64,000 bases of DNA, taken from positions 55,437-119,436 of the forward strand of contig JAXLQU010000007.1 in NCBI GenBank assembly GCA_046331425.1. Direction: 5' to 3'. A program made the translations under genes and the position numbers. The DNA comes from Acidobacteriota bacterium (lineage in GTDB: Bacteria > Acidobacteriota > Polarisedimenticolia > J045). The notes under the pieces are model-generated. The model saw only the letters and a program-made list of their open reading frames with translations, was not told where the DNA came from and searched no databases. Each line of letters opens with the position of its first letter. Position 1 is the first letter of the stretch. Of this stretch, positions 10,517-64,000 are shown piece after piece.

Positions 10517-10769
10517 CCTCGAAGAGTCTCCAGAGGTTGTCGAAGGCGACGCTGCCGCGGGCTGCGGGGGGCCGGGATGATAGGCGGGCGTGCGGGCCGA
10601 AGTCAAACCGAACGACCCCGAACCGGTCTGGGAGTTTGGCTCAGGAGTGGGGAGCGTCCCAACCCCACTGCCAGACTGATAATGGCCCTTGCGGTGCCGC
10701 TGCCGCCGACCCATCCGAACCCTCCCTCGACCGGAATATAGGAGAGAGAGGGGCGATCAGGCACGCTGC

Positions 10770-11696
10770 TTAGTGAGCGGGAAGCGGTATCGCCGGTGCT
10801 TGTGCCACACGTGTAATGGCGGCGAGCGCCGACGCGAGGTCCTTTTCGGTCGTGGCGGGGGCGACACTCGCCCTCAACCATCGAGTCTGAACCGACTCGG
10901 CCAGAGCCGAGTTTGGTGGCGGGCCCGCGACCCAAACTCCGAACGCCTCCCGTAGCACCGTAACGGCTTCCTCCGGCGCCCACTGCTCGAAGCGGAATGC
11001 AACGATTCCGGTCTCGAATAGTGGAGATGACGAGACGATCACACCCGGCAAGCCGGTCAGCGCGGCTCGCAGTCGGGCCGCGTTCAGCACCGTCCGTTTT
11101 GCCATCGATGTACGCGTCCCGAGGGGAGTTCCCAGCGAGAGTCCCCAGCAACCGACAGGTTCGTCGTGCCAGCGATCCAGTGCAGCGACGACGGCGCTGG
11201 GCGTCCATTCGACAAACGCCCGAGCCGTGGTCCAGGGGGCTAGGGTCGCATCGATCGCGGTTGCTATTCGGTACCGGCTGGAAAGCGCGGCAAGGTCGGA
11301 AAAGCTGGCGGGAGTTCCATCGGGATGAACCGCGCTCGCGAACAAAAGCATTCGACGAGATTCGGAACGTTGGCTCAAATCGGCGACGGCCATCGGGTCG
11401 AACAGGCTGCTACCGACGCTCGGCACCACCGCGAGCGCGTCGTCACCAAAATGAAGCGTCTTGCCCACCGCTTCAACGAACTCCGCGGCCTCTCCCGCTC
11501 CAACCGCAACGACGGAAGGTTCAGAGTCGAGTCCGAGGCGAGCGCGCGCCCGCGCCAGCGCATGTTCGAGCCCGGGTAGGTGCTCGGAGTGGGGGGCAGG
11601 CCATTGGCACAGGCGTGCCGCGCACGGCGCGACACGTCCGGATCGTCGCGGGTCGTTGGGGAGCACGGGTGGCTCAGTCCAGGCCAGAAAAACCAT
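10770..11696 (-). CDS. hypothetical protein with weak class-V aminotransferase (PLP-fold)-like layout; catalytic Lys not evident
   Basis: 308 aa, high GC3. The segment ...TARAFVEWTPSAVVAALDRWHDEPVGCWGLSL sits where class-V enzymes carry the SGHK PLP-lysine motif, but the Lys is absent. The functional call is inference only. The plus ORF 10997..11719 is an Arg-rich shadow. Confidence 0.4.
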   Translation of the reverse strand: MVFLAWTEPPVLPNDPRRSGRVAPCAARLCQWPAPHSEHLPGLEHALARARARLGLDSEPSVVAVGAGEAAEFVEAVGKTLHFGDDALAVVPSVGSSLFDPMAVADLSQRSESRRMLLFASAVHPDGTPASFSDLAALSSRYRIATAIDATLAPWTTARAFVEWTPSAVVAALDRWHDEPVGCWGLSLGTPLGTRTSMAKRTVLNAARLRAALTGLPGVIVSSSPLFETGIVAFRFEQWAPEEAVTVLREAFGVWVAGPPPNSALAESVQTRWLRASVAPATTEKDLASALAAITRVAQAPAIPLPAH

Positions 11697-11810
11697 CGTG
11701 GCTTCGTCCTTCCGGTTGACGGGTCCGCTGCGGTAACTTGGTGCTACGACCCGCTCGGTCGCCAGTCTTGGTTGAATCAGAGCGGTGAGCAGGAGGGGAT
11801 CATTCCCGGT

Positions 11811-12836
11811 TTGGAGCGGTCACCGCGTCGAGTCGTGGTTGCGCAACTCGCGTTCATCGGCGACATGGTTTTCTCCACCCCGTTGTTGGCCGCTCTGCGA
11901 GCCCGTTGGCCGGATTCGGAGTTGCTGATTGTCGGTCGTCCCGCTGCGCTCGAGGTGCTGGAGGACCATCCGTCGAGTCCCTCGCTGATGCCCTACGACA
12001 AGGATCGGGACAGGGGATGGTCTGCCTTGAGGGCGGCTGGTGCTGCTTTGAGTCGATGGAAGCCCGATCTGAGCTTGGCGGTCAGCCGCTCGCTTCGATC
12101 AGCCCTCTTGACTCGTTTGTCGGGCGCGCCGACGAGGGTTGGCTTCAACAGCCGAGGTTGCAACTGGGCGTATACACACACGGTCGACCGTAACGATGCG
12201 ACCACGCCATTTCCAGAGCGCCCGATGCGATTGCTTCAAGCACTTGGGATCGAGGCACGGACCGAACCGCTGCTGCTCGCGGTAAGCGCGGCGCGTCGCG
12301 CGGCCAGTGCCCATCGCTTGCGCGCCGCCGGTTGGGGACCAGGACCGCTGCTTGCGATCGCGCCTGGCGCGCACTACGCCACCAAACGTTGGCCCGAGAG
12401 CCACTACGCAAAGCTGCTCCAGATGATCGAGCGCAAGACCGATTGGTGGGTAGCGCTGTATGGCGGACCGGCAGAAGAACCGCTGATGCAGCGATTGGCA
12501 GAGGCTCGCACTCGGGTCCTGCTCCGAAGTGGAATCGGAATCCGCGGCGTGTTGTCTGAATTGCCACACGCGAACGGATTCCTCGGAGGCGACTCTGGTC
12601 CCGCGCACATGGCGCGCGCGCTCGGTGTACCTGCGCTGATTCTCCACGGGCCGACCGACCCACGTCCGCTCTCCGACGGTCGCGACTATCCGTCGCTGTC
12701 TTTGGGTATCGACTGTCAGCCGTGCAGTCCTCACGGTGACAAAGTCTGTCCATTGAAACACCACCGCTGCATGATCGACCTCACGGCTGAGCACGTCTTC
12801 GATGCCCTCACGGCGCGCGTCTTGGTGGCGTCATGA
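11811..12836 (+). CDS. glycosyltransferase family 9 (ADP-heptose:LPS heptosyltransferase-like)
   Basis: RVVVAQLAFIGDMVFSTPLL near the N-term, then GAHYATKRWP and LGGDSGPAHMARALGVPALILHGPTDP, all GT9 signatures. Perfect AGGAGG at 11791-11796. The start is ambiguous (TTG 11811 or GTG 11835); the maximal ORF (11580) overlaps the divergent upstream gene and is rejected. Confidence 0.8.
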   Translation: MERSPRRVVVAQLAFIGDMVFSTPLLAALRARWPDSELLIVGRPAALEVLEDHPSSPSLMPYDKDRDRGWSALRAAGAALSRWKPDLSLAVSRSLRSALLTRLSGAPTRVGFNSRGCNWAYTHTVDRNDATTPFPERPMRLLQALGIEARTEPLLLAVSAARRAASAHRLRAAGWGPGPLLAIAPGAHYATKRWPESHYAKLLQMIERKTDWWVALYGGPAEEPLMQRLAEARTRVLLRSGIGIRGVLSELPHANGFLGGDSGPAHMARALGVPALILHGPTDPRPLSDGRDYPSLSLGIDCQPCSPHGDKVCPLKHHRCMIDLTAEHVFDALTARVLVAS

Positions 12837-13963
12837 AGGGCGCCCGCGACCTGTCGATCCTGCATGTCGATACGGGACGCGAATACCGCGGCGGCCAGCG
12901 TCAGGTGGAACTGTTGGTACGTGGGTTGGCGCAGCGCGGTCATCGGATCGGAGTAGTTGTTCCCCCGAGCGCTCCGCTGGCCGAACGACTGTTCGGCGTG
13001 CCAGGGATTCAACTGCACATCGCGCCTTTCTCCGGGGAGTTTTCGTGGCGCTCGGCGCAACGGCTACGTCGCTATCTCGAAGAGGGTGACTACCGCCTGC
13101 TGCACACGCATACAGCACACGCGATCACTCCAGCCCACCTCGCACGTCGTTGTGGGTCGGTAGCTCTGATCGCGCATCGGCGAGTCGACTTTCCACTGCG
13201 CCGAAATCCGCTGGCGCGATGGAAGTCGCGCTGGCCCGACGCTTGGATCGCGGTCAGCGAGGGAGTTCGGCGGCAACTGGTTCGTGACGGCCTGCGCGCC
13301 GAGCGGATCGCGGTGGTCGAGAGTGCGATCGATCCAGCGCGCCTCGAACCACAGCGCAGTCGTGACGCGCTACGCAGAGAGTTCTCGGTCGCCGAGTCGG
13401 CGAAGGTAATCGTGAGCGTCGGGGAGTTGGCGGCTCACAAAGGGCACACCGATCTGATCGCAGCTGTCGAGCGTTGCGACGACACGATCCTCTGGATCGT
13501 CGGCGAGGGCGGCGAGAGGCGGGCACTGCAATCGCAGATCGAGCGTCTCGATCTAGGTGCTCGGGTTCGGCTGCTTGGCAATCGCAACGACGTCGCCGAC
13601 CTGCTCGCTGCGTCGGATCTGTTTGTCTTCCCATCCAGATCGGGAGAGGGCTCTCCGGCGGCTGTGAAGGAAGCGATGGCACTAGGGGTGCCAATCGTTG
13701 CCAGTGATATTACAGCGCATCGAGACCTCGGAATCGCAGTCCCGAGTCTGTTCTCGCCAGGCGACGCTGGTGGCTTGAGGGCCCTGATTGCAGCAACGCT
13801 GGAGAACCTGCCGCATGCTCGCGAGTTGGCGCAGACGAGACAAGAAGAACTTGTGCGATTCCTTCCGGAGCGGATGGTCGCGCGTACGGAACGGATCTAC
13901 ATCGCCGTGTTGAATGGGAGCAGCGTCGAAACCGCAGAGTCGCTAGAATCCACGCCGGCCTGA
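12833..13963 (+). CDS. glycosyltransferase family 4 (GT-B)
   Basis: ATG overlaps the GT9 stop (ATGA). LSILHVDTGREYRGGQRQVELLVRGLAQRGHRIGVVVP N-term and C-terminal E...E motif region (ASDLFVFPSRSGEGSPAAVKEAMALGVPIVASD) typical of GT4. Confidence 0.85.
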   Translation: MKGARDLSILHVDTGREYRGGQRQVELLVRGLAQRGHRIGVVVPPSAPLAERLFGVPGIQLHIAPFSGEFSWRSAQRLRRYLEEGDYRLLHTHTAHAITPAHLARRCGSVALIAHRRVDFPLRRNPLARWKSRWPDAWIAVSEGVRRQLVRDGLRAERIAVVESAIDPARLEPQRSRDALRREFSVAESAKVIVSVGELAAHKGHTDLIAAVERCDDTILWIVGEGGERRALQSQIERLDLGARVRLLGNRNDVADLLAASDLFVFPSRSGEGSPAAVKEAMALGVPIVASDITAHRDLGIAVPSLFSPGDAGGLRALIAATLENLPHARELAQTRQEELVRFLPERMVARTERIYIAVLNGSSVETAESLESTPA

Positions 13964-13984
13964 GGTCAAGGAGGTTCGAGCGAT

Positions 13985-14476
13985 ATGGCGTGGACAGCGC
14001 GACAGATTTGGAAGGGAATGAACCGAGATCAAAGGCTTCGTGCGGCCGAGGCGTTGTTTGCGGATCAACGCTTGGACAAAGTGCAGCGGCTGCAGGCGCT
14101 CGCTCCATGGATGGTGGCCCAGGGCCTACGGCCGCAGTTCCTCGATTCGCTGCCGAAAGCGCGCCGGGCCTCGCTCCTGGCGGGATCGGGCCTTCCCGAA
14201 GAGACCGCCGCGCAGGTGCTGCTTTCCTTTCATCTCGTAGCGCAGCGTCCGCTATTGAGTCGTTTCCTCGACTTGCTCGGCGTGAAACACCAAGAAGGGC
14301 TGGTGGAAGACGATCAAGAAATGAAGCCGGATGCAGCGAAACTGCCTGAGGCGGCAGCGGTTATGCGCCGCGAGTTTCCCGGTGATGACGTCGATCTGTA
14401 CTTCCGCACGCTGGTGGCGGCCGACCCGGAAGGTTGGGAGCCGTTGATCCGCGAAGTGACAGCGCCCACGGCGTAG
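13985..14476 (+). CDS. hypothetical protein
   Basis: 163 aa, ATG preceded by AAGGAGG at 13967-13973. No recognisable domain. Confidence 0.55.
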   Translation: MAWTARQIWKGMNRDQRLRAAEALFADQRLDKVQRLQALAPWMVAQGLRPQFLDSLPKARRASLLAGSGLPEETAAQVLLSFHLVAQRPLLSRFLDLLGVKHQEGLVEDDQEMKPDAAKLPEAAAVMRREFPGDDVDLYFRTLVAADPEGWEPLIREVTAPTA

Positions 14477-14571
14477 GGGTTGCAGTCAGAGGTCCGGTCG
14501 ACGTAGCGTGTCGCCACCGCGATATCGCGTGGGAGTCCCGTGTCGGGCATGCCGGTTCGCGAGGAGGTCTT

Positions 14572-14676
14572 GTGACCGATTTCATCTTCGTGGTGGTCGG
14601 AGCGCTAGCAACGTTGTTGCTGCTCGCAATCGGGCTTTCCGTGTTCGGACTGGTCCGTCTAGCAAAGCTCTGCTGA
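14572..14676 (+). CDS. small hydrophobic membrane peptide (34 aa)
   Basis: GTG at 14572 lies 4 nt after GAGGAGG (14561-14567). Product (M)TDFIFVVVGALATLLLLAIGLSVFGLVRLAKLC is a single predicted TM helix. It lies inside a longer Met-less reading frame (14434..14676). Confidence 0.35.
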   Translation: MTDFIFVVVGALATLLLLAIGLSVFGLVRLAKLC

Positions 14677-14765
14677 TCACACCCGCACGCGCGATTCGCT
14701 CCCGCACTCGACTCTTGCTCGGGAGTTGCGCTCTCGTTCCCGCTCGCTCAGGACGGACTTGCTGA

Positions 14766-15824
14766 GTGACTGAATCCGAACGGAGTCGTTACGCCTCTTT
14801 CGTGCCGCGAAGCTCTCGAGCTCGCGAGGCGCTCTGGCTCTGCAACTACTGCGGCTCCGATCGCCAGAGCCCTGAGGAATTGGGTCTGCAGCCGGATGTG
14901 GTGACGGAGTTGGCGCGTGCTCATCGGCTCTCCGCGGTTGCGGGCTTCAAGCTGCACGCGGCCCAGGCGGTCTCGACCGAATGGCAGCGCACCATGGTGC
15001 GCGACTGGCGCCAAGCGCTCGGTGACGAAACGTTGTTCGGCAGTGAACTCGAGCGAATCGATGCAGCGATGTCACGAGCGGGAATTCGTTTCGTCCTGTT
15101 GAAGGGCGCCGACTTGGCGCGACGCGGGATCTACCACCCTGGCCAGCGCACGCACAATGATCTTGATCTGCTGATCGAACCAAGGGATCGCGATGTCGTG
15201 CATCGGCTCTTGAAGGAACTGGGATTTCACTCCGATCATCCGGCGCCTGACGCCGCCGCGCGGCATTGGTTCGCCAGCACCTACCGCCACAGTACGCAGG
15301 CGCGAGTGCAGTTGGATCTGCATTGGGATCTTGGCGCTCCGGGACGCGGCGAGTGGAATATCACGCGCGTCATGGAAACGTCGGAACCGTTGGGGGAGTG
15401 GCGCGCCGCACGGCGGCTGTGTCGAGCCGATCTGTGGGCGCACCTAGCCCTCCACGCCGTTGCCTACCATGGCGCGGCCGGGCGATGGATCTGGTGGCTG
15501 GACATCCATCGATTGCATCAGCAGTCACCGGTGACCGCGGGAGAGTGGGAGATGGTGCGCGCGCGTGGCGCCGAGATAGCACTACAGGCAGCGCTGTTGC
15601 GTGCTGCGGGGCTATTCGACCCGCGCAGGTTCGCCGATCTCGAGACCCGCTGGCGGGCTCGAGCCGTGGCACGTTGGGGCGCTCGATTCGAACGTGGTGG
15701 AGATTCGCGGTTGAAGCGCTGGTTGATCGGGGCCCTGAGCTTGGATCGGCCGAGCGACCTCGGCCTCGCCGCGATGAGCGTGGCGCGGCGACTCTCCGAT
15801 TCAGTGCGAGCCAAGAAAACCTAA
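14766..15824 (+). CDS. nucleotidyltransferase-family protein (PF14907-like 'uncharacterised nucleotidyltransferase')
   Basis: IRFVLLKGADLARRGIYHPGQRTHNDLDLLIEPRDRDVVHRLLKELGF matches the KGxxL...R.x.DiDLLv core of this family. GTG start. The 3' end overlaps the convergent rSAM gene by 4 nt. Confidence 0.8.
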   Translation: MTESERSRYASFVPRSSRAREALWLCNYCGSDRQSPEELGLQPDVVTELARAHRLSAVAGFKLHAAQAVSTEWQRTMVRDWRQALGDETLFGSELERIDAAMSRAGIRFVLLKGADLARRGIYHPGQRTHNDLDLLIEPRDRDVVHRLLKELGFHSDHPAPDAAARHWFASTYRHSTQARVQLDLHWDLGAPGRGEWNITRVMETSEPLGEWRAARRLCRADLWAHLALHAVAYHGAAGRWIWWLDIHRLHQQSPVTAGEWEMVRARGAEIALQAALLRAAGLFDPRRFADLETRWRARAVARWGARFERGGDSRLKRWLIGALSLDRPSDLGLAAMSVARRLSDSVRAKKT

Positions 15825-16909
15825 CCGAGATCGCAAACGACCTGTCGTTCTCCGAACTTGGTCTTGAGCATTTCCTCGATGGTCTGCCCGCCCTTGGCGT
15901 GCGCTTCCTGGCGCACTTCGGCTTGCGTGCAGGCCCAGGAGTTGGGGCCGAAGAAGTCGCCGTCCTCGAACAGCGAATCCAGACTGCATCGACCACAGAA
16001 TGAATTGTTGTGGCAACCCGAGCAGGTCGGAAGGTCCTGCGAAGTGATGTTCCGCAGGCGCAGCAGCAAGGGGGAACTCTCCCAGATCTCGCGGAACGAC
16101 TGTTCTCTCAGCGAGCCGGCAGGTGGAAATCGCTGTGAGCACGGGTAGACCAGGCCGCGCGCTGAGATCAACGCGACGCGACGCGCCGTTGCGCAAATGG
16201 CCTGATCATCGTTCGGTGTGGTGCCCGATCCGGGCTGCACCGCAAGGCCGAGATGCGGATCGACGCAAATCCCGAGCAGGTCGGCGCGATTCATGCGGTG
16301 GGCGAGTGGGGAATCGTCGAGGTCATAACGAACCACGAGAGTAGGGTCGAAGCGATACTCCGCGCCGATTTCGCGCGCGAAAGAAATGACCTGCTGATAC
16401 TCCCGAGTCAGGCCAGCCATGATCGGCGCCTTGACCACGGTCGGGACCCCGCGTTCTCGCAGCATCCGGGCGGCACGCAGCGTCCGGGCGTGACTCCCCG
16501 GAATTCGCGTGATCTCGTCGTGCTTGGCGGCGTCCATCGAGTAGAGTGACAACTCGACGGCGACCACACCAATGCTGGCGATCTGATCAGCGACTGACTC
16601 TGTGATCAACGTGCCATTGGAAAAAATCCGCAACGCAAAACCGAGGTTGCGTGCGTAGCGCACCAATGGAAGCGCGTCTTTGCGGGTGAAGATCTCTCCC
16701 CCCGTAAACGTCAGGAACAAAGTCCCCATGGCATGGAGCTCATCGAGAATGCGTTCGGCTTCTGTTTGCGTCAGCTCGTCGTGAACGTCTCCCAGATCGA
16801 CGTAGCAGTGCTTACAGTCCTCGTTGCACCGATTGGTCAACTCGAACAGCACCGAGATCGGAATCTGCTGGCGCAACGCTTCGGTCAGAACCTTGGTCAT
16901 TCCGATCAT
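15821..16909 (-). CDS. radical SAM/SPASM-domain peptide-modifying enzyme (PqqE-like), no fused RRE domain
   Basis: LFELTNRCNEDCKHCYVD carries the CxxxCxxC radical SAM cluster motif near the N-term, and TFTGGEIF is the SAM-binding GGE motif. The C-terminal SPASM domain has 7 Cys including CSGCHNNSFCGRC. The maximal ORF starts with TTG at 16954; I chose ATG 16909 (MIGMTKV...), which has GGAG 9-12 nt upstream. Confidence 0.85.
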   Translation of the reverse strand: MIGMTKVLTEALRQQIPISVLFELTNRCNEDCKHCYVDLGDVHDELTQTEAERILDELHAMGTLFLTFTGGEIFTRKDALPLVRYARNLGFALRIFSNGTLITESVADQIASIGVVAVELSLYSMDAAKHDEITRIPGSHARTLRAARMLRERGVPTVVKAPIMAGLTREYQQVISFAREIGAEYRFDPTLVVRYDLDDSPLAHRMNRADLLGICVDPHLGLAVQPGSGTTPNDDQAICATARRVALISARGLVYPCSQRFPPAGSLREQSFREIWESSPLLLRLRNITSQDLPTCSGCHNNSFCGRCSLDSLFEDGDFFGPNSWACTQAEVRQEAHAKGGQTIEEMLKTKFGERQVVCDLG

Positions 16910-17196
16910 GAGCTGATCTCCGTCACACGCTTCACGAGCGCTTGAGGACTCCAAGCGGTTGCGGCTTCGGTCCGGGTGTGGCCCTCAGCGACGCTAGTTT
17001 CTTGGGCTTGGGGCGGAAGAACGCGAATTCAGGCAAGCGATCGATGGCGCCCCAAAAACTCTGATCCGGCGTGAACTCGAGTCGGTACGGGTGACTCTGC
17101 GGAAGCACCTCACCGCGCTAAGGGTAATGCGGACTGAAATCGGCGGGAGCGGTGCTCCGCCGGCCTTCAAAGAGTGCGGCAGCGCATCGGCTGGTT

Positions 17197-17644
17197 TCAA
17201 TCAGTGACTCGATGCTGGGGTGCAAGGCCAAGAAGAAGAGTGCGCTTCCAAGGGGCCGAGGGAATTTTTACGTGCCAGAAGGGGTTCCGTGGACGCGAGT
17301 TCCGGATCCCACATCTGCGGACCACTACCATTTCATCCGCGAGCACAATCTGACCAGCATCTCGAGCAGCGATCGTGCTCTTGCCTGCGCCCGATCGACC
17401 CCGAGAAGACCACGCCGAAGTGGTCGCGCTTTACCACAGCCGCCGAGTGCAGCAGAGTGCTTCCTTCACGAAGCAGCACACCGCCCAGGGCGATCCGAAC
17501 GAACTGGGTCCAGATGCGCGAGGAATCGAGAATCGCCGACCCGTCCGAGCTCGAACTCCGCCCAGACCCTCGAAGCCGTCGCCCTCGATTCTTGCAGCGG
17601 ACAGGCTGCCGCTCGCCGCCGGCGGCGATGTAGGATGCAGCCGC
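17197..17644 (-). pseudogene. HprK-like P-loop kinase remnant (frameshifted, internal stops, lower GC)
   Basis: One frame gives ...RIALGGVLLREGSTLLHSAAVVKRDHFGVVFSG. A +1 shift at a C4 run (17399-17402) continues with GRSGAGKSTIAARDAGQIVLADEMVVV. Joined, this is the HprK C-domain signature (hydrophobic strand, G.SG.GKST, about 10 aa, L.ADD/E). Only about 100 codons are recognisable. Flanking sequence is AT-richer with stops in all frames. Confidence 0.45.
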
Positions 17645-17854
17645 TCAGGCCGACGGGTCGGGTCGACCTTGAGTGTCCAGCTGAACTCGGGGCGCCCACT
17701 TTCCTTCAAGAACCCCGCGTACGTTCGCGCAGCCGGGTCGAGAACTCGGCTCCTGTCACGGAAATGTCGAAGGCCTGCGATTTGGAGAATCGCGGGGTCA
17801 GCAAGCGGGAGAATGAACTGGGCCGCGCTGTTGCAGCTCGATTCGGAGACGAAA

Positions 17855-18001
17855 TCAATCGCGAGCACCGGCGCCGCAGTTGAATGGCTGACTGGTGCAA
17901 GAGGCCGAGAAGACCACCGGCTCGTAGTCCTCTTCCCATTCGATGGCAGGAACCTGCCATGTCTTCTTGTTGGTCGAACTGGATACGGTCGTCGAATTCA
18001 T
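17855..18001 (-). CDS. candidate RiPP precursor peptide, 48 aa (not in ORF track)
   Basis: ATG at 18001 lies 27 nt downstream of the stop of 18029..18676, with GGGGG 6-10 nt upstream. Product MNSTTVSSSTNKKTWQVPAIEWEEDYEPVVFSASCTSQPFNCGAGARD then TGA. It lies between the PqqD-like gene and the rSAM gene on the same strand. Whether it is really coding is unproven. Confidence 0.4.
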   Translation of the reverse strand: MNSTTVSSSTNKKTWQVPAIEWEEDYEPVVFSASCTSQPFNCGAGARD

Positions 18002-18028
18002 GCAGACCCCCGCAAGGTTGTGGGCCGG

Positions 18029-18676
18029 TCAACGGCCGCCTTCGATTCTAAAGGAAGTCGCGCTGGAAGAGAGCACCTTTCCAGCTTTCACCGCCGAGAT
18101 TTCCACCTGCCAAGTCCCGTAGAGCCCGTGACCGGTAACCCATGTTCCGCTCACCGGGAGCGGTACAGCCACGAACGCCGCGTTCTTCATCTGTCGCGGG
18201 GTCAATGATCCGGCTGGAAGTGCCCGCGCCAAACGTTTCGCGCGCAGGATGGGAAGGGTTTCGACTGGATGTGGGGCCAGGTCATCACGCAACACCGCGG
18301 TCTGTGTTCCTGCCGGATCGACTGGGTCGATCCGGGTCTCGTAGATGTTGCCATCCGGCAACACGAACTTGGCGACTTGATCGAACCCAGCGTCCCCGAC
18401 TCGGGTGCGGTCGTAGACTGCGATGATGTAGAGCTGAAGCGTCTGTGGTCCATCGAATGGACCTGTATTCAGCCGATTCGGCGCGGTTCGTGACTGCAAC
18501 AGCGATTGAGGGTCGACGTCGGTCACGAACACCCCTACAACAGCGTTGCCCGCAATCGGCTCCGGTTTTGGTTTGGCGATGATCGCAGCATGAGCGGTGA
18601 CGCCGGGGAGTCCCAACGTGATCGCGAGGGCGGCGAGCAGCTTTCGATCGATGCGCATCATAGTCGTCATCCTCAT
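18029..18676 (-). CDS. secreted hypothetical protein
   Basis: 215 aa. Signal peptide MMRIDRKLLAALAITLGLPGVTAHAA. The true start is probably the second or third ATG (18664/18661), which has GAGG upstream. No motif recognised. Confidence 0.65.
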   Translation of the reverse strand: MRMTTMMRIDRKLLAALAITLGLPGVTAHAAIIAKPKPEPIAGNAVVGVFVTDVDPQSLLQSRTAPNRLNTGPFDGPQTLQLYIIAVYDRTRVGDAGFDQVAKFVLPDGNIYETRIDPVDPAGTQTAVLRDDLAPHPVETLPILRAKRLARALPAGSLTPRQMKNAAFVAVPLPVSGTWVTGHGLYGTWQVEISAVKAGKVLSSSATSFRIEGGR

Positions 18677-18716
18677 CTCGGCAGTGGCAGATGGACTGCC
18701 GCTGACCGGTTTTCAA

Positions 18717-21076
18717 TCAGTTGATCTTCACCCAGTGGTACGTGCCGCCCGTGGTACCGACAACGATCCCTTGGTTGGTGCCGTTGTTGTAGTCGAAGGT
18801 TGGTGTACCGATCGTCGTTCCGGCCTCGACGGTCCAAGAACGAACGACCGCGCCCGAGGTGGCGTTGATCTCGTAAAGTTTTCCGTCGGAGGATCCCACA
18901 TACGCGTAGGTGTCGTTGCCTCCGGTGACGTCACGCAGCACGATCGGCGCACTCGGCGACGCAATGCTCGTGGTCCAGTAGGTGGCTTCGTCGAACGTAC
19001 CGTCTCCGAGTAACTTGATGCCGTGCACCTTCGAGTCCGTGGTCCAGACGATCCAGTTCACCCACAAGGCGTTCTCGGCAATGCTATTTCCCGGCGCCAC
19101 GCCGCGGACCGCGCCGTCGCTTTGCGCACAGCCGCCAGCGACCGTGCAACTGTCCAGACTCAGCAGCGAGCCACCCGACGCAACCAGGGCGTTGTAGACA
19201 TACACGTCGCCGGTGGTGTTTCCCGCGACCAGGATCCGATCCGAGCCTTTCTTGGCAATCGCAAGGCCAGCGTCGATGTCTCCGATGCCGCTGATTACGG
19301 CGTATTCGGGCACATTGAATGCCGGCGTCGAGTTGACTTCGAGGACCACGATCGACTCGCCACCATCGTCTCGCACGCCGACGTAAACCAAGTTGTTGGC
19401 GCTATCGCGGTACTGGATCGTGGGTGCGCCGTTGGAGATACCGAGAGTACCGCCACCGTTGTAGCTGTCTCGCAGCGTCGCCAGATCATGGCTGTACATC
19501 AGAATCTTGTTGTTGGCGGCGCCGCAGCGAGTCGCAACCACGACGACATCGTCGCTGTTGTTGGAGTTGGCGTCGAAGCCGTCGAGCATGACAACAGGAG
19601 ATGTTTGCAGGAGGCCCGAAGTGCACCCAGCGTCGCCACCGGTGCCGGCGACGTTTCGTGTCGCCTCCGCGCCCGAGGTGCCATCGTCGGCGGAGTAGCG
19701 GTATAGGCGACCCGGCTCTGCGACGAAACGTAGCAGGTGTAGTCCGTTCCTCCTGCATCGAGATCGTCGCACAGCGGTCGTGCTTGTACAGCACCGCCGG
19801 CGAGCGGTGGGACCCAACCGCCACGGCTTCCATCGGTCTCACTCATCCGTTGGAGCAAGCGATCGTTGCCGATCCCAATCACGTATGCAGCCGGAATCGC
19901 TCCGACCGGAGCCAAGGTTGTGGCGTTGGTCTTGAACGCGAACTTGAAGGACGAGACCGCGCGCGGATAGCCGGTCGTCGCCACGCCGCTCGAGTAGTTG
20001 TAGTCGCCGTCGTAGGCGAAGGCCTTGTAGTAGTAGGTTGTGCCATTGGAGACCAACAGGTCGTTGCAGGAGTCGTTGGGGCTATCGCCTGAGTCGACGA
20101 TGCACGTTACCGACGCCGTACCGATGGAGTCGCCGAGGCTGTAGGAGGTGCCGGCGACCGGTGCATCCGTCACCGCCGAGCCGGTCTGACTCAGAACCAA
20201 CATTCCTGCGTAGTCAGTGTCGAGCGGGTTCTCCCACTCGGCGGTGACGATCAGATCGGAGGACGCCGCTGTCACCTTGCTTGGATTGCCTGGGGGGACC
20301 GTGTCAGCCAGCGTAAATGCCCACTGATTCCCGGTTGTCGCCGAGGCAGAACTGATATCGCCGCTGGCCTTGTACCAAAGGCCGACCGTGCCCGCGCCGT
20401 TCTCACTGCCGACCAGGTTCGGGTGGTCGGCGGCCGCCGCCCCCGCTTCGCTGACGATCTCGACAAACGCTTCGTCGGTGACGGTATCCAGAGCGAGTTG
20501 CACGGTTACCAGAACATCGCCGTCGATGTTCGGCACACTCGTCCACTGCACGACGAAGCAATGGTCGTTTCCTCCAGCGCCATCGCGATCGACATTGCAA
20601 GTGGTTGACTGGTACTTGACTGAACCACCGGCACTGGGATCCAGGTCGTCACCGTACGCATAGACCGCGTTGTTCGGGGGCCCCGAATCGGGCACGCTGG
20701 AGCCACCGGCGTCATTGGTGTAACCGGCGCCAAAAGACACGTACCCGTTGGACGAGATGTACGCGCCGGAGTAGGTGCTGCCGTACCAAGTGAACGAGCC
20801 ACCGATGTTGGTGACCAGCTTGTAGCAATCGTCGCCGCTACATCCACTGGGCTTCCAACCGGTCACGGTCGTGCCGGTTCCCGAAATGTCCGGTATCCAG
20901 TTGTTGGCGTCGAGTTGGCAATAGTAGCCGCCGGTGTCTTTGACAGCGGCCCCCGTGCACTCCGAGTCGGTTGCGAAACTGATCGTCGACAGGGTTCCAA
21001 CGACGACGACTGCGAATGCACGACACAACGTCGGCCACGTCCTCTTGTTGCGACCCATCTTCTCGCTCCCGTTCAT
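18717..21076 (-). CDS. large secreted Cys-rich protein with C-terminal beta-propeller-like repeats; interrupted by a 1-nt frameshift
   Basis: ORFs 19499..21076 and 18717..19817 are consecutive frames of one gene. The upstream frame is real to ...GGTDYTCYV and the downstream frame is real (GC3 about 80%) from ...AEPGRLYRYSADDGTSG. Restoring one A in the A3 run at 19726-19728 gives ...CYVFVAEPGRLY.... Signal peptide MGRNKRTWPTLCRAFAVVVVGTLSTISFA. Its ATG overlaps the PqqD-like stop (ATGA). Confidence 0.6.
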
Positions 21077-21483
21077 AACCTGTCCTCCGAGGCGTTCCCC
21101 GGCGCCGCGGCCTCAGGCTCGCGTTGCGAGCCCGAAGGGCCCGTGGGCGCCTCGACGATCAACCCACGAGAGGCCAGCTCTCGTAGGAATGCGTGCACGT
21201 CGGGAGCGGCAGCCGCCTCGTCCAGGCCGGCGCTCGCCGCGAGTACCCGCGTTACGTCTTCCACAGTGCGGACCCCGTCGAGCAGTCCCCAAACCTGGGA
21301 ACCGTTTTCGTTGAGTCCGAGTAGTTTTCTTCCTTCGTAGTGCAGCACTACGGCCTTGCCGCCCAATGTTTGCTTGGCCAGACGCGGGTTGTGTGAGAAG
21401 CGCGTTGCCGTCGAGAACGGAATCGGCCGCTCTGAGGAGGGGACCACTTTTCCTGCCTTTCCTCTCGTCGGCGGTGTGGGCAC
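21073..21483 (-). CDS. PqqD-family protein (stand-alone RiPP recognition element-like)
   Basis: LAKQTLGGKAVVLHYEGRKLLGLNENGSQVWGLLDGVRTVEDVTRVLAASAGLDEAAAAPDVHAFLRELASRGLIV is a textbook PqqD/RRE sequence. The maximal ORF starts with GTG at 21483. An internal GTG at 21447 with AGGAAAGG upstream is the more likely start. Confidence 0.8.
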   Translation of the reverse strand: MPTPPTRGKAGKVVPSSERPIPFSTATRFSHNPRLAKQTLGGKAVVLHYEGRKLLGLNENGSQVWGLLDGVRTVEDVTRVLAASAGLDEAAAAPDVHAFLRELASRGLIVEAPTGPSGSQREPEAAAPGNASEDRL

Positions 21484-21598
21484 ACCGGCCGGGGGCGTTC
21501 ACATGCGTCCGACGGGAAATCTAGGCATCGAGCGAGACAACGCAAACCGGGTCTCTGTTCTGCCCCCGGGACCACCGCGCGTCCCCCATCGACGCCCT

Positions 21599-21670
21599 AC
21601 GGTACATTTCGAAAGCCGCCGGATCGTAGCGTACCCCTTCCGTACCTGTCTATCGGTACCGCGCGGTACC
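21599..21670. promoter_or_regulatory. GTAC-repeat element with perfect 16-bp palindrome GGTACCGCGCGGTACC, in the divergent intergenic region
   Basis: Five GTAC(C) cores lie within 70 bp (21602, 21632, 21643, 21657, 21667), including the palindrome at 21655-21670. Position is between the PqqD-like gene start and the divergent GT4 gene start. Function unknown. Confidence 0.3.
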
Positions 21671-21798
21671 CCGCGTCACCCGGCAACCGCTGGACAGAGC
21701 AACGAAAGAGCCTCGCCTCAGACAGGAAGAGCGGTCCGCTCGCGCCGCTTTACAGCGATGGTCCAATCACCCCACAGTGCGGTGGGAGGCTCGGTAGC

Positions 21799-23058
21799 GT
21801 GTCGCACGAAAGATCGGTCGTGGTCCACGTCATTACCCGGATGATCTTGGGGGGGCCGACCCGGCCGGTCCTCGCCGCCCTGTCGCGACTGCCATCACAC
21901 GGTCTGAGCCCGGTGTTGATCACTGGGCCCCCGGCGGCACATGAACTTCCAGATCGGCAGGCGTATGAGGCTATCGCGGGGCTGCAGGTCATCGAACTGC
22001 GCGAACTGGTGCGCGATCCTGCCGGTTGGAGAGATCTGCGGGCGACTTTGACCCTGATCCGAAAACTCCGTCGGTTCGACCCGATGTTGATCCACACGCA
22101 CACCGCGAAAGCGGGTGCGCTCGGCAGGCTCGCAGGATGGTTCCTTGGGAGTCATCGGCCACCGGCCGTCCACACGTTTCATGGACACTCACTCAGTCGC
22201 GCGGCCGCCGGTCGGATGGCACCCGTGTGGCGCACCATCGAGCGAGGACTCGCGCGTTTCGCTACCGACTTGGTCCTGACGCTCTCGCCACGTCAGCGCC
22301 AGGAGATCGTCGATCTCTTGGGCAGGAAACTCGCTTCACGTGTGGTGGTGCAGCCGCTCGCCTTCGACTTCGCGATGTGCCCCGAGGATCTTGCAGAGTC
22401 ACGACGATTCACAGCCGCGGTGCGGCGATCGGACGAGCGACTCCTCGCTTTCGTCGGTCGAGGAGTGGTTGTCAAAGGCCTGCACGACCTGGCGCGTGCT
22501 CACGCGCGACTGATGGCTTTGGATCTGCGTGCCGGGCGACGATTGCGCGTCACACTGATTGGTCCGCTCGAACCGGTTGTCGAGAACATCGTGCGCCGCG
22601 TCCTCAGCGACTCAGGCTTGCTTGACCAATGGAACTTCTGGGGGCCGACGCTGAATCCTCGTCCGCTGTTGGAAGCTGTCGATGGTGTTGTCTTGCCGTC
22701 GCACACCGAGGGCACGCCGGTATCGATACTCGAGGCGTTTGCTCTGGGATTGCCGGTCATTGCCTCGGCCGTTGGGGGAGTGCCGGAACTCTTGGCGGGC
22801 AGATGGGAGCGGATCGCCGCGGGTGATTGGCGCGTCGAACGAACCGCGCCGCGCGGTTTGCTAGTTCCGTCGGGCGACATCGACGCCTGGGCGGCAGCGC
22901 TCCAGACGTTCGCCTCAGACCCAACGCAGATTCCTGGCGATCCAGCGGAAAGAAAGGCGTTCGTGACGACGACGTTCGATGCGGACCAACACGTACGCGA
23001 TCTACTCGAGCTTTATGCCCGCGCCGGAGCGAAGGCGCACACGAACCGGATCGGTTAG
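21799..23058 (+). CDS. glycosyltransferase family 4 (GT-B)
   Basis: VVVHVITRMILGGPTRPV N-term, HTHTAKAGALG, C-terminal EGTPVSILEAFALGLPVIAS. GTG start with GGGAGG 10 nt upstream. Confidence 0.85.
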   Translation: MSHERSVVVHVITRMILGGPTRPVLAALSRLPSHGLSPVLITGPPAAHELPDRQAYEAIAGLQVIELRELVRDPAGWRDLRATLTLIRKLRRFDPMLIHTHTAKAGALGRLAGWFLGSHRPPAVHTFHGHSLSRAAAGRMAPVWRTIERGLARFATDLVLTLSPRQRQEIVDLLGRKLASRVVVQPLAFDFAMCPEDLAESRRFTAAVRRSDERLLAFVGRGVVVKGLHDLARAHARLMALDLRAGRRLRVTLIGPLEPVVENIVRRVLSDSGLLDQWNFWGPTLNPRPLLEAVDGVVLPSHTEGTPVSILEAFALGLPVIASAVGGVPELLAGRWERIAAGDWRVERTAPRGLLVPSGDIDAWAAALQTFASDPTQIPGDPAERKAFVTTTFDADQHVRDLLELYARAGAKAHTNRIG

Positions 23059-43692: not shown

Positions 43693-43768
43693 GCGGGCGT
43701 AGCTCAGTTGGCAGAGCATCAGCTTCCCAAGCTGAGGGTCGCGGGTTCGACCCCCGTCGCCCGCTCCA
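43693..43768 (+). tRNA. tRNA-Gly (anticodon CCC), CCA encoded
   Basis: The 76-nt sequence GCGGGCGTAGCTCAGTTGGCAGAGCATCAGCTTCCCAAGCTGAGGGTCGCGGGTTCGACCCCCGTCGCCCGCTCCA folds as a cloverleaf. Acceptor stem is GCGGGCG/CGCCCGC; anticodon stem TCAGC/GCTGA; loop TTCCCAA gives anticodon CCC with U33 and A37; T-loop TTCGACC; discriminator U73. Confidence 0.85.
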
Positions 43769-63992: not shown

Positions 63993-64000
63993 ACCTGGCC

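What the first reader, a model, noticed from the sequence alone, without database searches (positions are those of the whole stretch)
14572..21483. Candidate uncharacterised RiPP-like peptide-modification locus: rSAM/SPASM maturase, discrete PqqD-like RRE, PF14907 nucleotidyltransferase, HprK-like kinase remnant and a 48-aa precursor candidate
Seen in sequence: a PqqE-like radical SAM enzyme (CNEDCKHC cluster motif, 7-Cys SPASM tail) that begins directly with the rSAM core, so it lacks the N-terminal RRE domain many peptide maturases carry. The missing RRE is supplied as a separate PqqD-family gene (21073..21483) 4 kb upstream on the same strand. Between them, same strand, lie two secreted proteins (one 786-aa Cys-rich propeller protein, ATGA-coupled to the PqqD gene), a 48-aa ORF, and a decayed HprK-like P-loop kinase. 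A PF14907-type nucleotidyltransferase converges on the rSAM gene with a 4-nt 3' overlap, preceded by a 34-aa TM peptide with a perfect SD.

Established knowledge: PqqD-like RREs recruit leader peptides to rSAM/SPASM enzymes (PqqD/PqqE, MftB/MftC, sactisynthases). In lasso-peptide clusters, HprK-like kinases, PF14907 nucleotidyltransferases and PqqD-like B1 proteins are the characteristic peptide-tailoring and recognition trio.

Inference: this locus combines that trio with an rSAM/SPASM enzyme in place of the lasso cyclase and protease. I do not recognise this architecture as any characterised RiPP class. It is not PQQ (no pqqB/C), not mycofactocin (no GVY C-terminus or creatininase), and not the quinohemoprotein amine dehydrogenase system (no small Cys/Trp-rich gamma subunit or dihaem alpha-subunit gene).
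Basis: partly seen in the sequence, partly recalled or inferred. Interest (0 to 1): 0.85.

Follow-up and report, generated by a model that had tools for sequence, protein, structure and literature searches.

The report
Uncharacterised radical-SAM peptide-modification gene cluster
This soil Acidobacteriota locus encodes a small conserved peptide and the enzymes to modify it chemically, a combination found in many genomes that no paper or curated family searched here describes.

Summary

**Confirmed genes**
- Profile searches confirm the radical SAM/SPASM enzyme (15821-16909, minus strand), a discrete PqqD-family recognition protein (21073-21483) and a PF14907 nucleotidyltransferase (14766-15824).
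- The 48-aa ORF (17855-18001) is a real, conserved precursor. Its last 33 residues are identical in a genome only 82% identical in DNA there. It carries a WxxPxI leader motif and two invariant cysteines.

**Corrections**
- The "786-aa propeller" is split by a 2-bp insertion near 19714.
- The HprK-like gene (16932-17792) is a true pseudogene, with about 25 indels against an intact copy in a sister genome 93% identical in DNA.

**Wider distribution**
- In 66 of 91 sources examined, an HprK-like (ScmC-family) gene and a PqqD gene lie close to the rSAM. 47 of those also carry a peptide of this family and 41 carry PF14907.
- The peptide family has 4,446 clusters at 90% identity. None is named.

**Comparison with known systems**
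- No curated NCBIfam model reaches its cut-off.
- The closest characterised relative is the Bacillota LPP family (2026), which lacks the rSAM.

**Verdict:** a candidate new RiPP architecture. In this genome the kinase has been lost.

The parts
21073..21483 (-). Discrete PqqD-family peptide-recognition protein (RRE). Longest ORF 136 aa. The start called in sister genome L090 maps to 21447 (124 aa).
   Evidence: PF05402 at 5e-15. Weak, sub-threshold NCBIfam hits to GeoRSP, lasso, PQQ and ScmD chaperones. dN/dS 0.14 against L001. Start mapping.
18717..21076 (-). Large secreted protein: signal peptide, beta-sandwich and Fn3-like N-terminal half, 8-bladed BamB-like beta-propeller C-terminal half. 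Disrupted here by a 2-bp insertion near 19714. Start overlaps the PqqD stop (ATGA).
   Evidence: Two ORFs in different frames. Indel mapped against L001 and L090. Intact 786-aa homologue P0241 is 95-97% identical. AF2 model and Foldseek search. Both halves have dN/dS 0.05-0.07. Same position in L001, L081, L082, L087, L088, L089 and L090.
18029..18676 (-). 215-aa protein with a signal-peptide-like N-terminus, no family assignment. Conserved between the large secreted protein and the precursor gene in this clade.
   Evidence: No Pfam or NCBIfam hit. Counterparts of 210-259 aa at the same position in seven syntenic loci. dN/dS 0.10.
17855..18001 (-). Precursor peptide, 48 aa: MNSTTVSSSTNKKTWQVPAIEWEEDYEPVVFSASCTSQPFNCGAGARD. 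It has a WxxPxI leader motif and two invariant Cys (C35, C42).
   Evidence: Conserved in L001, L081, L082, L087 (two copies), L088, L089 and L090. The family profile finds members in 51 of 91 sources. Invariant positions are P18, E23, C35 and C42. dN/dS 0.10, and no amino-acid change in the last 33 residues against L001 although the gene is only 82% identical in DNA.
16932..17792 (-). Pseudogene of an HprK-like P-loop protein (ScmC family). Start codon deleted, about 25 small indels, P-loop GRSGAGKSTIA still readable.
   Evidence: Three-frame reading. Alignment to the intact 297-aa gene of L090 and the 317-aa gene of L001. Identity 87%, equal to third-codon-position identity of neighbouring genes. 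Family assignment of the intact orthologues: ScmC TIGR04249 1e-9, HprK_rel_B 2e-9, Hpr_kinase_C 0.0016, precomputed PF27840 ScmC. Boundaries.
15821..16909 (-). Radical SAM/SPASM peptide maturase candidate, 362 aa (ORF open to the TTG at 16954). CX3CX2C cluster motif and a full 7-Cys SPASM domain.
   Evidence: Pfam. No NCBIfam equivalog reaches its cut-off. Closest solved structures by sequence are SkfB 7e-18 and PqqE 2e-14. 126 homologues at E <= 1e-20, mostly Acidobacteriota. dN/dS 0.021.
14766..15824 (+). PF14907 nucleotidyltransferase, convergent with the rSAM gene (4-nt overlap). Last gene of a co-directional run: GT9, GT4, 163-aa protein, 34-aa protein, PF14907.
   Evidence: PF14907 at 5e-31. 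The same convergent position in L001, L081, L082, L087, L088 and L090. Within 10 kb of the rSAM in 41 of 66 triad loci. dN/dS 0.14.
14572..14676 (+). 34-aa hydrophobic ORF (VTDFIFVVVGALATLLLLAIGLSVFGLVRLAKLC) with GGAGG upstream. Possible small membrane protein; link to the system unproven.
   Evidence: Homologous ORF in L001 and L090. Absent from L081 and L082, where no gene is called at this position.
11580..14476 (+). Context genes upstream of the nucleotidyltransferase on the same strand: GT9 heptosyltransferase-family (11580-12836), GT4 (12833-13963) and a 163-aa protein of unknown family (13985-14476). Possible glycosylation accessory; association is by synteny only.
   Evidence: Pfam. 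The same order next to PF14907 in L082, L087, L088 and L090.
21799..23058 (+). GT4 glycosyltransferase, divergent from the PqqD gene. Context only.
   Evidence: Pfam. The same divergent position in L081, L082 and L087.

Best explanation
The locus is a ribosomal-peptide (RiPP-type) maturation cassette.

**Proposed mechanism**
1. The 48-aa product of 17855-18001 is the substrate.
2. Its WxxPxI motif is bound by the discrete PqqD-family protein.
3. That protein presents the peptide to the radical SAM/SPASM enzyme.
4. The enzyme most likely installs one or two cross-links involving the two invariant cysteines. These would be sacti- or ranthipeptide-like thioethers.

**The second branch, seen in the wider family**
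- An HprK-like (ScmC-family) P-loop protein probably phosphorylates a serine, and a PF14907 nucleotidyltransferase probably decorates that phosphate. This is what happens in paeninodin-type lasso peptides and in LPPs.
- The likely target is the invariant C-terminal Ser of the common Terriglobia-type peptides.

**State of this genome**
- The kinase is a pseudogene. The clade's peptides no longer keep a C-terminal Ser.
- So the rSAM branch is the part still maintained here.
- The large secreted propeller protein and the 215-aa secreted protein belong to the same operon in this clade. Their role is unknown.

**Shown:** gene identities, conservation, co-occurrence, purifying selection, pseudogenisation.
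**Inferred:** RRE-leader binding, the chemistry of the rSAM reaction, kinase and nucleotidyltransferase activity, leader removal and export.
For: **Domains**
- Domain identities are confirmed.

**Co-occurrence**
- 66 of 91 sources have an HprK-like gene within 3 kb and a PqqD gene within 6 kb of the rSAM; in most the three ORFs abut or overlap. 47 of the 66 also have a peptide of the family and 41 have PF14907.
- The cassette occurs in Acidobacteriota and also in MAGs labelled Omnitrophota, Elusimicrobia, Planctomycetia, Verrucomicrobiota and Thermomonas.

**The peptide**
- Invariant positions are P18, E23, C35 and C42.
- The [Y/W]xxP motif matches the motif shown crystallographically and by mutagenesis to bind lasso and LPP RREs (PMC13381572).
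- Terriglobia-type peptides read Y.KP.F..E.VFET.AL.CGK...C......S. That resembles the LPP leader YxxPxVLxHQxIxFETxxS.
- 44 of 53 peptides end in Ser. HPr-kinase homologues phosphorylate the C-terminal Ser of lasso precursors, and a nucleotidyltransferase then adds hexoses to that phosphate (PMC8498205).

**Selection**
- dN/dS is 0.021 for the rSAM, 0.10 for the peptide and 0.14 for PqqD.
- There is no excess of amino-acid changes on the window's branch.
- The kinase region evolves at the neutral rate and carries about 25 indels.

**Relatives of the rSAM**
- The closest solved structures by sequence are peptide-modifying enzymes: SkfB and PqqE.
Against: - No modification has been observed. The chemistry is argued only from the invariant Cys and the enzyme class.
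- The best NCBIfam scores of the window's rSAM are to haem-pathway enzymes (NirJ2 151 bits, AhbD 133 bits). These are marginally above MftC and PqqE, and all are far below their cut-offs.
- No leader peptidase or exporter lies in the 64-kb window.
- Two of the operon's genes are broken here.
- In this clade the C-terminal residue varies (D, S or R) although sister genomes keep an intact kinase. The C-terminal-Ser model therefore does not transfer simply to this clade.
- ScmC-family proteins have never been shown to be kinases. Their sequence matches to HprK and PEPCK cover little more than the P-loop region.
Confidence: 0.75

Rival explanations
1. Same cassette, different chemistry. The rSAM/SPASM enzyme does something other than Cys-based thioether formation: a carbon-carbon cross-link of the PqqE type (Glu-Tyr) or StrB type, epimerisation, or oxidative decarboxylation. 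The two cysteines would then form a disulfide or bind a metal.
For: - The leader-proximal block holds invariant Glu and aromatic residues: E23 and [YW]...E..[FY]E.
- PqqE and MftC are among the best-scoring relatives.
- The peptide's KPAF-type motif resembles the N-terminus of PqqA. This comes from memory and was not tested.
Against: - The only invariant positions outside the leader motif are the two Cys.
- LPP precursors share the leader but have neither the conserved Cys pair in their reported consensus motif nor an rSAM in their core gene set (PMC13381572). That links the Cys pair to the rSAM.
- SkfB, a thioether-forming enzyme, is the closest solved relative.
Confidence: 0.25
2. The peptide is not a free natural product. 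It is matured into a cofactor or a cross-linked small subunit for the co-encoded secreted beta-propeller protein. The analogies are the quinohemoprotein amine dehydrogenase gamma subunit (matured by QhpD) and PQQ with its propeller dehydrogenases.
For: - A large secreted propeller-type protein sits inside the operon in all eight members of this clade.
- A different large secreted Ser/Thr-rich protein abuts the cassette in 29 further loci.
- Propeller proteins with PQQ_2 hits flank the cassette in L086.
- The peptide block is about as conserved as the enzyme: 56% against 59% mean identity.
Against: - The peptide has no signal peptide.
- The propeller model matches BamB-like scaffolds, not specifically quinoprotein dehydrogenases.
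- The two kinds of secreted protein are not demonstrably homologous: hhalign probability 31% over one blade.
- The segment between the two Cys and the tail are variable, as in ordinary RiPP cores.
- No haem subunit, QhpE-like protease or exporter lies nearby.
Confidence: 0.1
3. In this particular genome the locus is a decaying, non-functional remnant. The intact genes simply have not yet accumulated lesions.
For: - Two of seven genes are disrupted: the kinase carries about 25 indels and has lost its start codon, and the propeller gene has a 2-bp frameshift.
- No leader peptidase or exporter is present in the window.
Against: - The kinase has drifted at the neutral rate long enough to collect about 25 indels. 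Over the same period the rSAM, PqqD, peptide, nucleotidyltransferase and both halves of the propeller gene collected none beyond the one 2-bp insertion.
- There is no excess of amino-acid replacements on the window's branch: rSAM 1 against 1, PqqD 2 against 1, propeller 5 against 10.
- The propeller frameshift may be an assembly error.
Confidence: 0.12
4. The rSAM/SPASM enzyme acts on a non-peptide substrate or on a protein (haem d1 or haem b pathway, anaerobic sulfatase maturation). Its neighbours would then be coincidental.
For: - The top NCBIfam scores are to NirJ2 and AhbD.
- A sulfatase gene lies at 62532-63998.
Against: - Those scores are 130-150 bits against cut-offs of 500.
- No haem-pathway neighbours are present.
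- The sulfatase gene is 46 kb away.
- The tight linkage to PqqD, the HprK-like gene and the peptide is conserved across phyla.
Confidence: 0.02

Closest known systems
Linear polyphosphorylated peptides (LPP) of Bacillota (Popov et al., Nat Commun 2026, PMC13381572)
   Same: - Discrete RRE, HprK-like kinase and NTP transferase acting on a ribosomal peptide without a lasso cyclase.
- Leader with the [Y/W]xxP motif followed by a ...FET-type block.
- Clusters embedded in glycosyltransferase or polysaccharide loci.
- Final product and biological role unknown.
   Different: - LPP clusters have an SpI-type leader peptidase and an MsbA-like exporter, and no radical SAM enzyme.
- Their precursors have variable C-termini and are phosphorylated on Ser3 of the core.
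- The present family has an rSAM/SPASM enzyme, two invariant Cys and usually a C-terminal Ser.
- It occurs mainly in Acidobacteriota and is often linked to a large secreted protein.
Paeninodin- and pseudomycoidin-type phosphorylated lasso peptide clusters (reviewed in PMC8498205)
   Same: - The trio of PqqD-like B1, HPr-kinase homologue and nucleotidyltransferase.
- Phosphorylation of a C-terminal Ser.
- The [Y/W]xxPx[L/V/I/F/A] leader motif.
- A B2-type transglutaminase-like gene in four related loci.
   Different: - No Asn-synthetase-like cyclase in the window or among the conserved neighbours.
- No B2 protease in this window.
- A radical SAM/SPASM enzyme occupies the central position.
SynChlorMet cassette (NCBIfam TIGR04248-04251: ScmC, ScmD, ScmE, ScmF) and the GeoRSP system (TIGR04302-04303, probably with HprK-related kinase B TIGR04355). 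Both are bioinformatic definitions without experimental characterisation, as far as I know.
   Same: - The same three protein types side by side: HprK-like P-loop protein, PqqD-like protein, rSAM/SPASM enzyme.
- ScmC is the best NCBIfam hit of the HprK-like protein, and precomputed Pfam assigns it to PF27840 ScmC.
   Different: - All scores are far below the curated cut-offs: ScmC 38-44 against 125, ScmD 22-26 against 100, ScmE 85-105 against 400, GeoRSP rSAM 99-109 against 400.
- One rSAM gene rather than two.
- The peptide family matches no NCBIfam model.
Sactipeptide and ranthipeptide maturases (SkfB, AlbA, PapB type) and PqqE/PqqD
   Same: - An rSAM with a full SPASM domain, a Cys-containing precursor and RRE-guided recognition.
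- SkfB and PqqE are the closest solved structures by sequence.
   Different: - The RRE is a separate protein, not an N-terminal domain.
- Kinase and nucleotidyltransferase partners are present.
- No pqqB or pqqC genes.
- Scores are below every equivalog cut-off.

Membership tests
Lasso peptide cluster | Asn-synthetase-like macrolactam cyclase (C protein) | tested here: not met
   No Asn_synthase hit among the predicted coding ORFs of the whole 64-kb window. No such family appears among the conserved neighbour clusters that were inspected.
Lasso peptide cluster | Transglutaminase-like leader peptidase (B2) | tested here: not met
   jackhmmer seeded with the Transglut_core3 genes of L084 and L086 finds hits only in L004, L084, L085 and L086, none in the window.
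Lasso peptide cluster | PqqD-like RRE (B1) and a [Y/W]xxPx[L/V/I/F/A] leader motif | tested here: met
   PF05402 at 5e-15. The peptide has W15-Q-V-P18-A-I20. The motif definition comes from PMC13381572.
LPP family (PMC13381572) | SpI-type (SipW-like) leader peptidase and MsbA-like exporter | tested here: not met
   No signal-peptidase or ABC-exporter Pfam hit in the window. ABC ATPase and permease genes occur in only 10-15 of the related loci.
LPP family (PMC13381572) | Discrete RRE + HprK-like kinase + NTP transferase | tested here: inconclusive
   The RRE and the PF14907 gene are present and intact. The kinase is a pseudogene here but intact in L090, L001 and others. The paper does not state whether LppN belongs to PF14907.
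LPP family (PMC13381572) | Leader consensus YxxPxVLxHQxIxFETxxS with phospho-Ser at core position 3 | tested here: inconclusive
   Terriglobia-type relatives read YxKPxFxxExVFETxALxC. That is similar but two residues shorter, and S or A occupies the position before Cys. The window peptide reads WQVPAIEWEEDYEPVVFSASC. The comparison was by eye with the published motif only; no LPP sequences were available.
SynChlorMet cassette (NCBIfam) | ScmC, ScmD, ScmE and ScmF above curated cut-offs | tested here: not met
   ScmC 38.1 and 44.1 bits (cut-off 125). ScmD 22-26 (100). ScmE 85-105 (400). ScmF 57-71 (400)..
GeoRSP system / HPr-rel-A system (NCBIfam) | System-specific rSAM, PqqD and HprK-related models above cut-off | tested here: not met
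   GeoRSP rSAM 99-109 bits (400). GeoRSP PqqD 19.5-33 (100). HprK_rel_B 17-37 (200). HprK_rel_A 25-28 (200). PqqD_rel_X 15-16 (35)..
PQQ biosynthesis | PqqE and PqqD equivalogs, PqqB/C genes, PqqA with the E-x3-Y core | tested here: not met
   PqqE 92.8 bits (cut-off 381). PqqD 25-32 (46).. No pqqB or pqqC-type hit in the window.
Mycofactocin | MftC equivalog and a precursor ending in GVY | tested here: not met
   MftC 111 bits (cut-off 265). The peptide ends ...GAGARD.
Sactipeptide / ranthipeptide | rSAM with a SPASM (or twitch) domain plus a Cys-containing precursor | tested here: met
   PF04055 + PF13186 with seven SPASM cysteines. Two invariant Cys in the peptide family.
Sactipeptide / ranthipeptide | Cys sulfur to C-alpha, C-beta or C-gamma thioether cross-links in the product | not testable with these tools
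   Needs mass spectrometry or NMR of the modified peptide.
Quinohemoprotein amine dehydrogenase (QhpD system) | Dihaem alpha subunit, Cys/Trp-rich gamma subunit, subtilisin-like QhpE, ABC exporter QhpF | tested here: not met
   None of these domains appears in the window. The peptide has only two Cys.

The most novel reading that the evidence does not exclude
The cassette defines a new, very widespread RiPP class of soil Acidobacteriota and a few other phyla. The products would be short peptides cross-linked by a radical SAM/SPASM enzyme at two invariant cysteines. In most lineages they would also carry a C-terminal phospho-serine extended by a PF14907-dependent glycosyl or nucleotidyl group. 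They would act together with a co-encoded secreted beta-propeller-type protein or with the cell-envelope polysaccharide machinery, rather than as classical antibiotics. The kinase loss in this genome would be a natural experiment separating the two modification branches.
Probability: 0.3. Interest if true: 0.85.

Novelty: new variant of a known kind. Interest (0 to 1): 0.7.

Why it matters
- Acidobacteriota are among the most abundant soil bacteria, and their peptide natural products are almost unexplored.
- The precursor family is large: 4,446 clusters at 90% identity and 693 representatives at 50% identity. Every source name shown for it is 'hypothetical protein', and it has no Pfam or NCBIfam model.
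- The enzyme set joins two modification logics that have so far been seen apart. One is RRE-guided radical SAM cross-linking. The other is the kinase and nucleotidyltransferase tailoring of phosphorylated lasso peptides and LPPs.
- A defined substrate and a small gene set make the system directly testable by heterologous expression.
- The system could also help explain why phosphorylated lasso peptides and LPPs sit in polysaccharide loci. Their biological roles are still unknown.

Tried and rejected
**Literature**
- Searches for SynChlorMet, GeoRSP and HPr-rel-A found nothing relevant.
- So did searches for Pfam accession combinations and for ranthipeptide + Acidobacteriota + PqqD.
- The rSAM-RiPP compendium (PMC10288494) and the RRE-Finder paper (PMC7470986) do not mention kinases or Acidobacteria.
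- The first search was swamped by the unrelated acronym 'SCMC'.

**Sequence and structure tests that led nowhere**
- NCBIfam on three representative peptides: no hit even at E = 1.
- Promoter and terminator scan of 13900-22000: no more sites than in shuffled sequence.
- Rfam on the whole window: only one tRNA.
- Homology between the window-type propeller protein and the Terriglobia-type secreted protein: hhalign probability 31% over one blade, so homology is not shown.
- PDB searches with the HprK-like protein and with its family profile: P-loop-level hits only.

**Ideas rejected**
- Sequencing error as the cause of the broken kinase gene. The indels are confined to that one gene while 13 kb of flanks have almost none.
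- A lasso cluster: there is no cyclase.
- A 'highly conserved core, hence cofactor' argument. This was weakened when the segment between the two Cys and the tail proved variable.

Full report
**1. What is in the window**

The window is a 63% G+C chromosomal segment of an Acidobacteriota bacterium.

- PF14907 nucleotidyltransferase at 14766-15824 (+), E = 5e-31.
- Radical SAM + SPASM at 15821-16954 (-), 3e-24 and 1e-8.
- PqqD at 21073-21483 (-), 5e-15.

The rSAM enzyme starts directly with its CX3CX2C core (TNRCNEDCKHCY). It carries a full SPASM cysteine set, CX12GX4C ... CX2CX5CX2C ... C. Homologues are 362 aa long, so the likely start is the ATG at 16909, which has GGAG 10 nt upstream.

The ATGA overlap of PqqD with the next gene is as described. 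So is the 4-nt convergent overlap of the nucleotidyltransferase and rSAM genes.

Two details need correcting.
- **The '786-aa' protein is two ORFs in different frames.** These are 19499-21076 and 18717-19817; the span of 2360 nt is not a multiple of three.
- **The HprK-like remnant (P-loop GRSGAGKSTIA) is much more decayed than a frameshift or two.**

**2. Close relatives show what the locus looked like intact**

Two genomes were used for comparison.

| Locus | Record | Similarity to the window |
|---|---|---|
| L001 | JANNUT010000060 | rSAM 95% identical in protein, 81% in DNA |
| L090 | GCA_964484415.1 | 93% DNA identity over 14 kb |

Both carry the same gene order with every gene intact:
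PqqD, 786/787-aa secreted protein, ~215-aa secreted protein, small peptide, 297-317-aa HprK-like protein, rSAM. PF14907 is convergent.

- **The kinase is a true pseudogene.**
  - Against L090 the window has about 25 small indels confined to 17091-17839, plus loss of the start codon.
  - The other 13 kb show only a handful of indels.
  - Aligned identity in that stretch is 87%. That equals the third-codon-position identity of neighbouring genes, 84-87%.
  - The region is therefore drifting neutrally. Sequencing error does not explain it.
- **The propeller gene has one lesion, a 2-bp insertion near 19714.** Both halves remain under strong purifying selection (dN/dS 0.05-0.07). The lesion is therefore recent or an assembly error.
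- **The remaining genes are constrained.**
  - dN/dS against L001 is 0.021 for the rSAM, 0.10 for the peptide and the 215-aa protein, and 0.14 for PqqD and PF14907.
  - With L001 as outgroup, the window's branch shows no excess of amino-acid changes: rSAM 1 against 1, PqqD 2 against 1, propeller 5 against 10, PF14907 6 against 4.
  - The lineage has lost the kinase and kept the rest.

**3. The small ORF is a conserved precursor**

The 48-aa product is MNSTTVSSSTNKKTWQVPAIEWEEDYEPVVFSASCTSQPFNCGAGARD. It recurs at the same position in eight syntenic loci whose rSAM is 53-95% identical where measured. Examples are ...TWIRPAIEWEEDYEPVVFAASCTSEAFNCGGGAHS and ...TWQKPAIEWEEPYEPVVFAASCTLQAFNCGAGAHD. 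L087 has two copies.

Between the window and L001 the last 33 residues are identical, although the peptide gene is only 82% identical in DNA.

A related peptide lies just upstream of the HprK-like gene in the more distant Terriglobia-type loci, for example KKPYQKPAFRHERVFETMALSCGKVQSTQGQCHFNRKNS.

Features of the whole family:
- Invariant positions are P18, E23, C35 and C42.
- Across 34 species-level genomes the consensus is Y.KP.fr.E.VFET.AL.CGK...tq..C..nrk.S.
- The segment between the two Cys and the tail are variable. The block as a whole is about as conserved as the enzyme: 56% against 59% mean identity.
- 44 of 53 peptides end in Ser. The window's clade is the exception, ending in D, S or R.
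- The family has 4,446 clusters at 90% identity.
- It has 693 representatives at 50% identity with E <= 0.001, and the match nearly always runs to the protein's C-terminus.
- The only source name shown among the hits listed is 'hypothetical protein', and none has a Pfam domain.
- Three representative peptides match no NCBIfam model.

**4. The partners are conserved**

Six-frame ORFs of the window and 90 fetched loci were searched with iterated profiles.
- 66 of the 91 sources have an HprK-like gene within 3 kb and a PqqD gene within 6 kb of the rSAM. In most the order is kinase-PqqD-rSAM, with ORFs that abut or overlap.
- 47 of the 66 have a family peptide.
- 41 of the 66 have PF14907 within 10 kb.
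- Sources without the HprK-like gene are mostly the more distant rSAM relatives (about 30% identity) from gut Bacteroidota and Firmicutes.
- The cassette also occurs in MAGs labelled Omnitrophota, Elusimicrobia, Planctomycetia, Verrucomicrobiota and Thermomonas, each with a recognisable peptide.
- Four loci add a transglutaminase-like, lasso-B2-type gene. In three it sits right after the rSAM.
- A large secreted protein is tightly linked to the cassette.
  - The window-type propeller protein is present in the eight clade members.
  - A different Ser/Thr-rich family is present in 29 further loci.
  - Homology between the two could not be shown.
- The AF2 model of the intact homologue (pLDDT 83.5) has a C-terminal 8-bladed propeller most like BamB and YxaL.

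**5. What it is not**

No curated equivalog claims the proteins.

| Protein | Best NCBIfam scores (bits) | Cut-offs (bits) |
|---|---|---|
| rSAM | NirJ2 151, AhbD 133, TIGR04053 115, MftC 111, GeoRSP 99, PqqE 93 | 265-500 |
| PqqD protein | GeoRSP, lasso, PQQ and ScmD chaperones, about 22-33 | 46-100 |
| Intact HprK-like orthologues | ScmC 38-44, HprK_rel_B 17-37, HprK_rel_A 25-28 | 125, 200, 200 |

- Precomputed Pfam places the HprK-like protein in PF27840 'ScmC'.
- The whole window has no Asn-synthetase-type cyclase, B2 protease, signal-peptidase-type leader peptidase, ABC exporter, pqqB/C gene or QHNDH subunit.
- It is therefore not a lasso, LPP, PQQ, mycofactocin or QHNDH locus by their defining features.
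- The closest solved structures by sequence are SkfB (7e-18) and PqqE (2e-14). Both are peptide-modifying enzymes.

**6. Closest known systems**

- **LPP.** Popov et al. (Nat Commun 2026, PMC13381572) describe linear polyphosphorylated peptides in Bacillota.
  - There is no cyclase, and the clusters sit in glycosyltransferase-rich capsule loci.
  - The leader consensus is YxxPxVLxHQxIxFETxxS. It is cleaved after T-1, and Ser3 of the core is polyphosphorylated.
  - The [Y/W]xxP motif is the RRE-binding element.
- **Resemblance.** The Terriglobia-type peptides (YxKPxFxxExVFET...) resemble that leader, and the window peptide has the WxxP variant. This was judged by eye against the published motif and is not a statistical test.
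- **Lasso tailoring.** The lasso review PMC8498205 documents two steps: HPr-kinase homologues phosphorylate the C-terminal Ser of paeninodin-type precursors, and a nucleotidyltransferase then adds hexoses to that phosphate.
- **Catalogued cassettes.** NCBIfam already lists cassettes with the same three protein types, SynChlorMet ScmC/D/E/F and GeoRSP. As far as I know these remain uncharacterised.
- **Literature.** No search found a description of the present architecture or its peptide family. Subscription-only literature could not be searched.

**7. Most likely mechanism**

*Shown:* identities, synteny, selection.

*Inferred:*
1. The PqqD protein binds the [W/Y]xxP leader and delivers the peptide to the rSAM/SPASM enzyme.
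2. The enzyme most plausibly makes thioether cross-links from the two invariant Cys.
   - These are the only invariant positions outside the leader motif.
   - LPP precursors share the leader but have neither the conserved Cys pair in their reported motif nor an rSAM in their core gene set.
3. In most lineages the ScmC-family P-loop protein phosphorylates a Ser, probably the invariant C-terminal one, and PF14907 extends the phosphate.
4. In this clade the C-terminal Ser is not conserved, and in this genome the kinase is dead. The rSAM branch is therefore what selection maintains here.

Leader removal, export and the role of the two secreted proteins are open. The ScmC family keeps an invariant His, a GxSGxGK[ST] P-loop and an Asp (H123, G138-T146, D161 in alignment A4). 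From memory, this spacing is similar to the His, P-loop and Asp of HPr kinase; it was not tested.

**8. Verdict**

This is a conserved, widespread and apparently undescribed RiPP-type cassette. It joins the kinase and nucleotidyltransferase tailoring module of phosphorylated lasso peptides and LPPs to an RRE-guided radical SAM/SPASM enzyme.

It is best rated as a new variant of a known kind. The copy in this window has a pseudogenised kinase and a frameshifted propeller gene.

Noticed in passing
window 14572-14676 (+); L001 12238-12342 (-); L090 8344-8448 (-): A 34-aa hydrophobic ORF with a strong Shine-Dalgarno sequence is conserved between the window, L090 (1 substitution) and L001 (59% identity). 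It lies between the 163-aa unknown gene and PF14907. It is absent from L081 and L082. It may be a small membrane protein.
   Followed up: partly
window ~19713-19714: A 2-bp insertion (CG) splits the secreted propeller gene. The gene is intact in L090 (P0241, 786 aa, 95-97% identical) and in L001. The lesion could be a recent mutation or an assembly error.
   Followed up: partly
L036 4019-4255 and 8188-8418; L087 6683-6832 and 6936-7097: Some loci carry two copies of the precursor gene. In L087 the two differ in their N-terminal regions and have identical C-terminal halves.
   Followed up: no
L023 (Thermomonas MAG, NZ_JADKKV010000003.1), whole 21-kb locus: Three HprK-like, two PqqD-like and three PF14907-like ORFs lie within 21 kb. 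This suggests two or three related cassettes side by side in a gammaproteobacterium.
   Followed up: no
29 related loci, e.g. L046 6115-8118, L005 11227-13116, L036 12422-14290: A family of 600-1000-aa secreted Ser/Thr-rich proteins sits directly upstream of the precursor gene or directly downstream of the rSAM gene. They carry propeller-blade-like 'GDxxGxLY' motifs. Homology to the window's propeller protein was not demonstrable.
   Followed up: partly
L084 11025-11411; L086 11152-11658; also L004 and L085: A short (128-168 aa) Transglut_core3 (lasso B2-type) gene is present. In three of the four loci it follows the rSAM directly, in the sub-clade with gene order PqqD-ScmC-rSAM. My peptide profile found no precursor in these loci.
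   Followed up: partly
window 13985-14476 (+): A 163-aa protein with no family assignment is conserved next to PF14907 in L001, L090, L087, L088 and L082 (dN/dS 0.08 against L001).
   Followed up: no
window 62532-63998 (-): A sulfatase-family gene runs off the end of the window. No anaerobic sulfatase-maturase-type neighbour was seen. It is 46 kb from the rSAM gene and is not linked to it in related loci.
   Followed up: no
window 43693-43768 (+): tRNA-Gly (CCC), the only RNA family hit in the window.
   Followed up: yes
window 10046-10756 to 7077-7898 (-); same genes in L082, L087, L090: A conserved gene string (HTH_25 protein, ~380-aa unknown protein, TPR protein, PP2C phosphatase) lies just beyond the GT9 gene in all close relatives. 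It looks like vertically inherited chromosomal context, not a mobile island.
   Followed up: no
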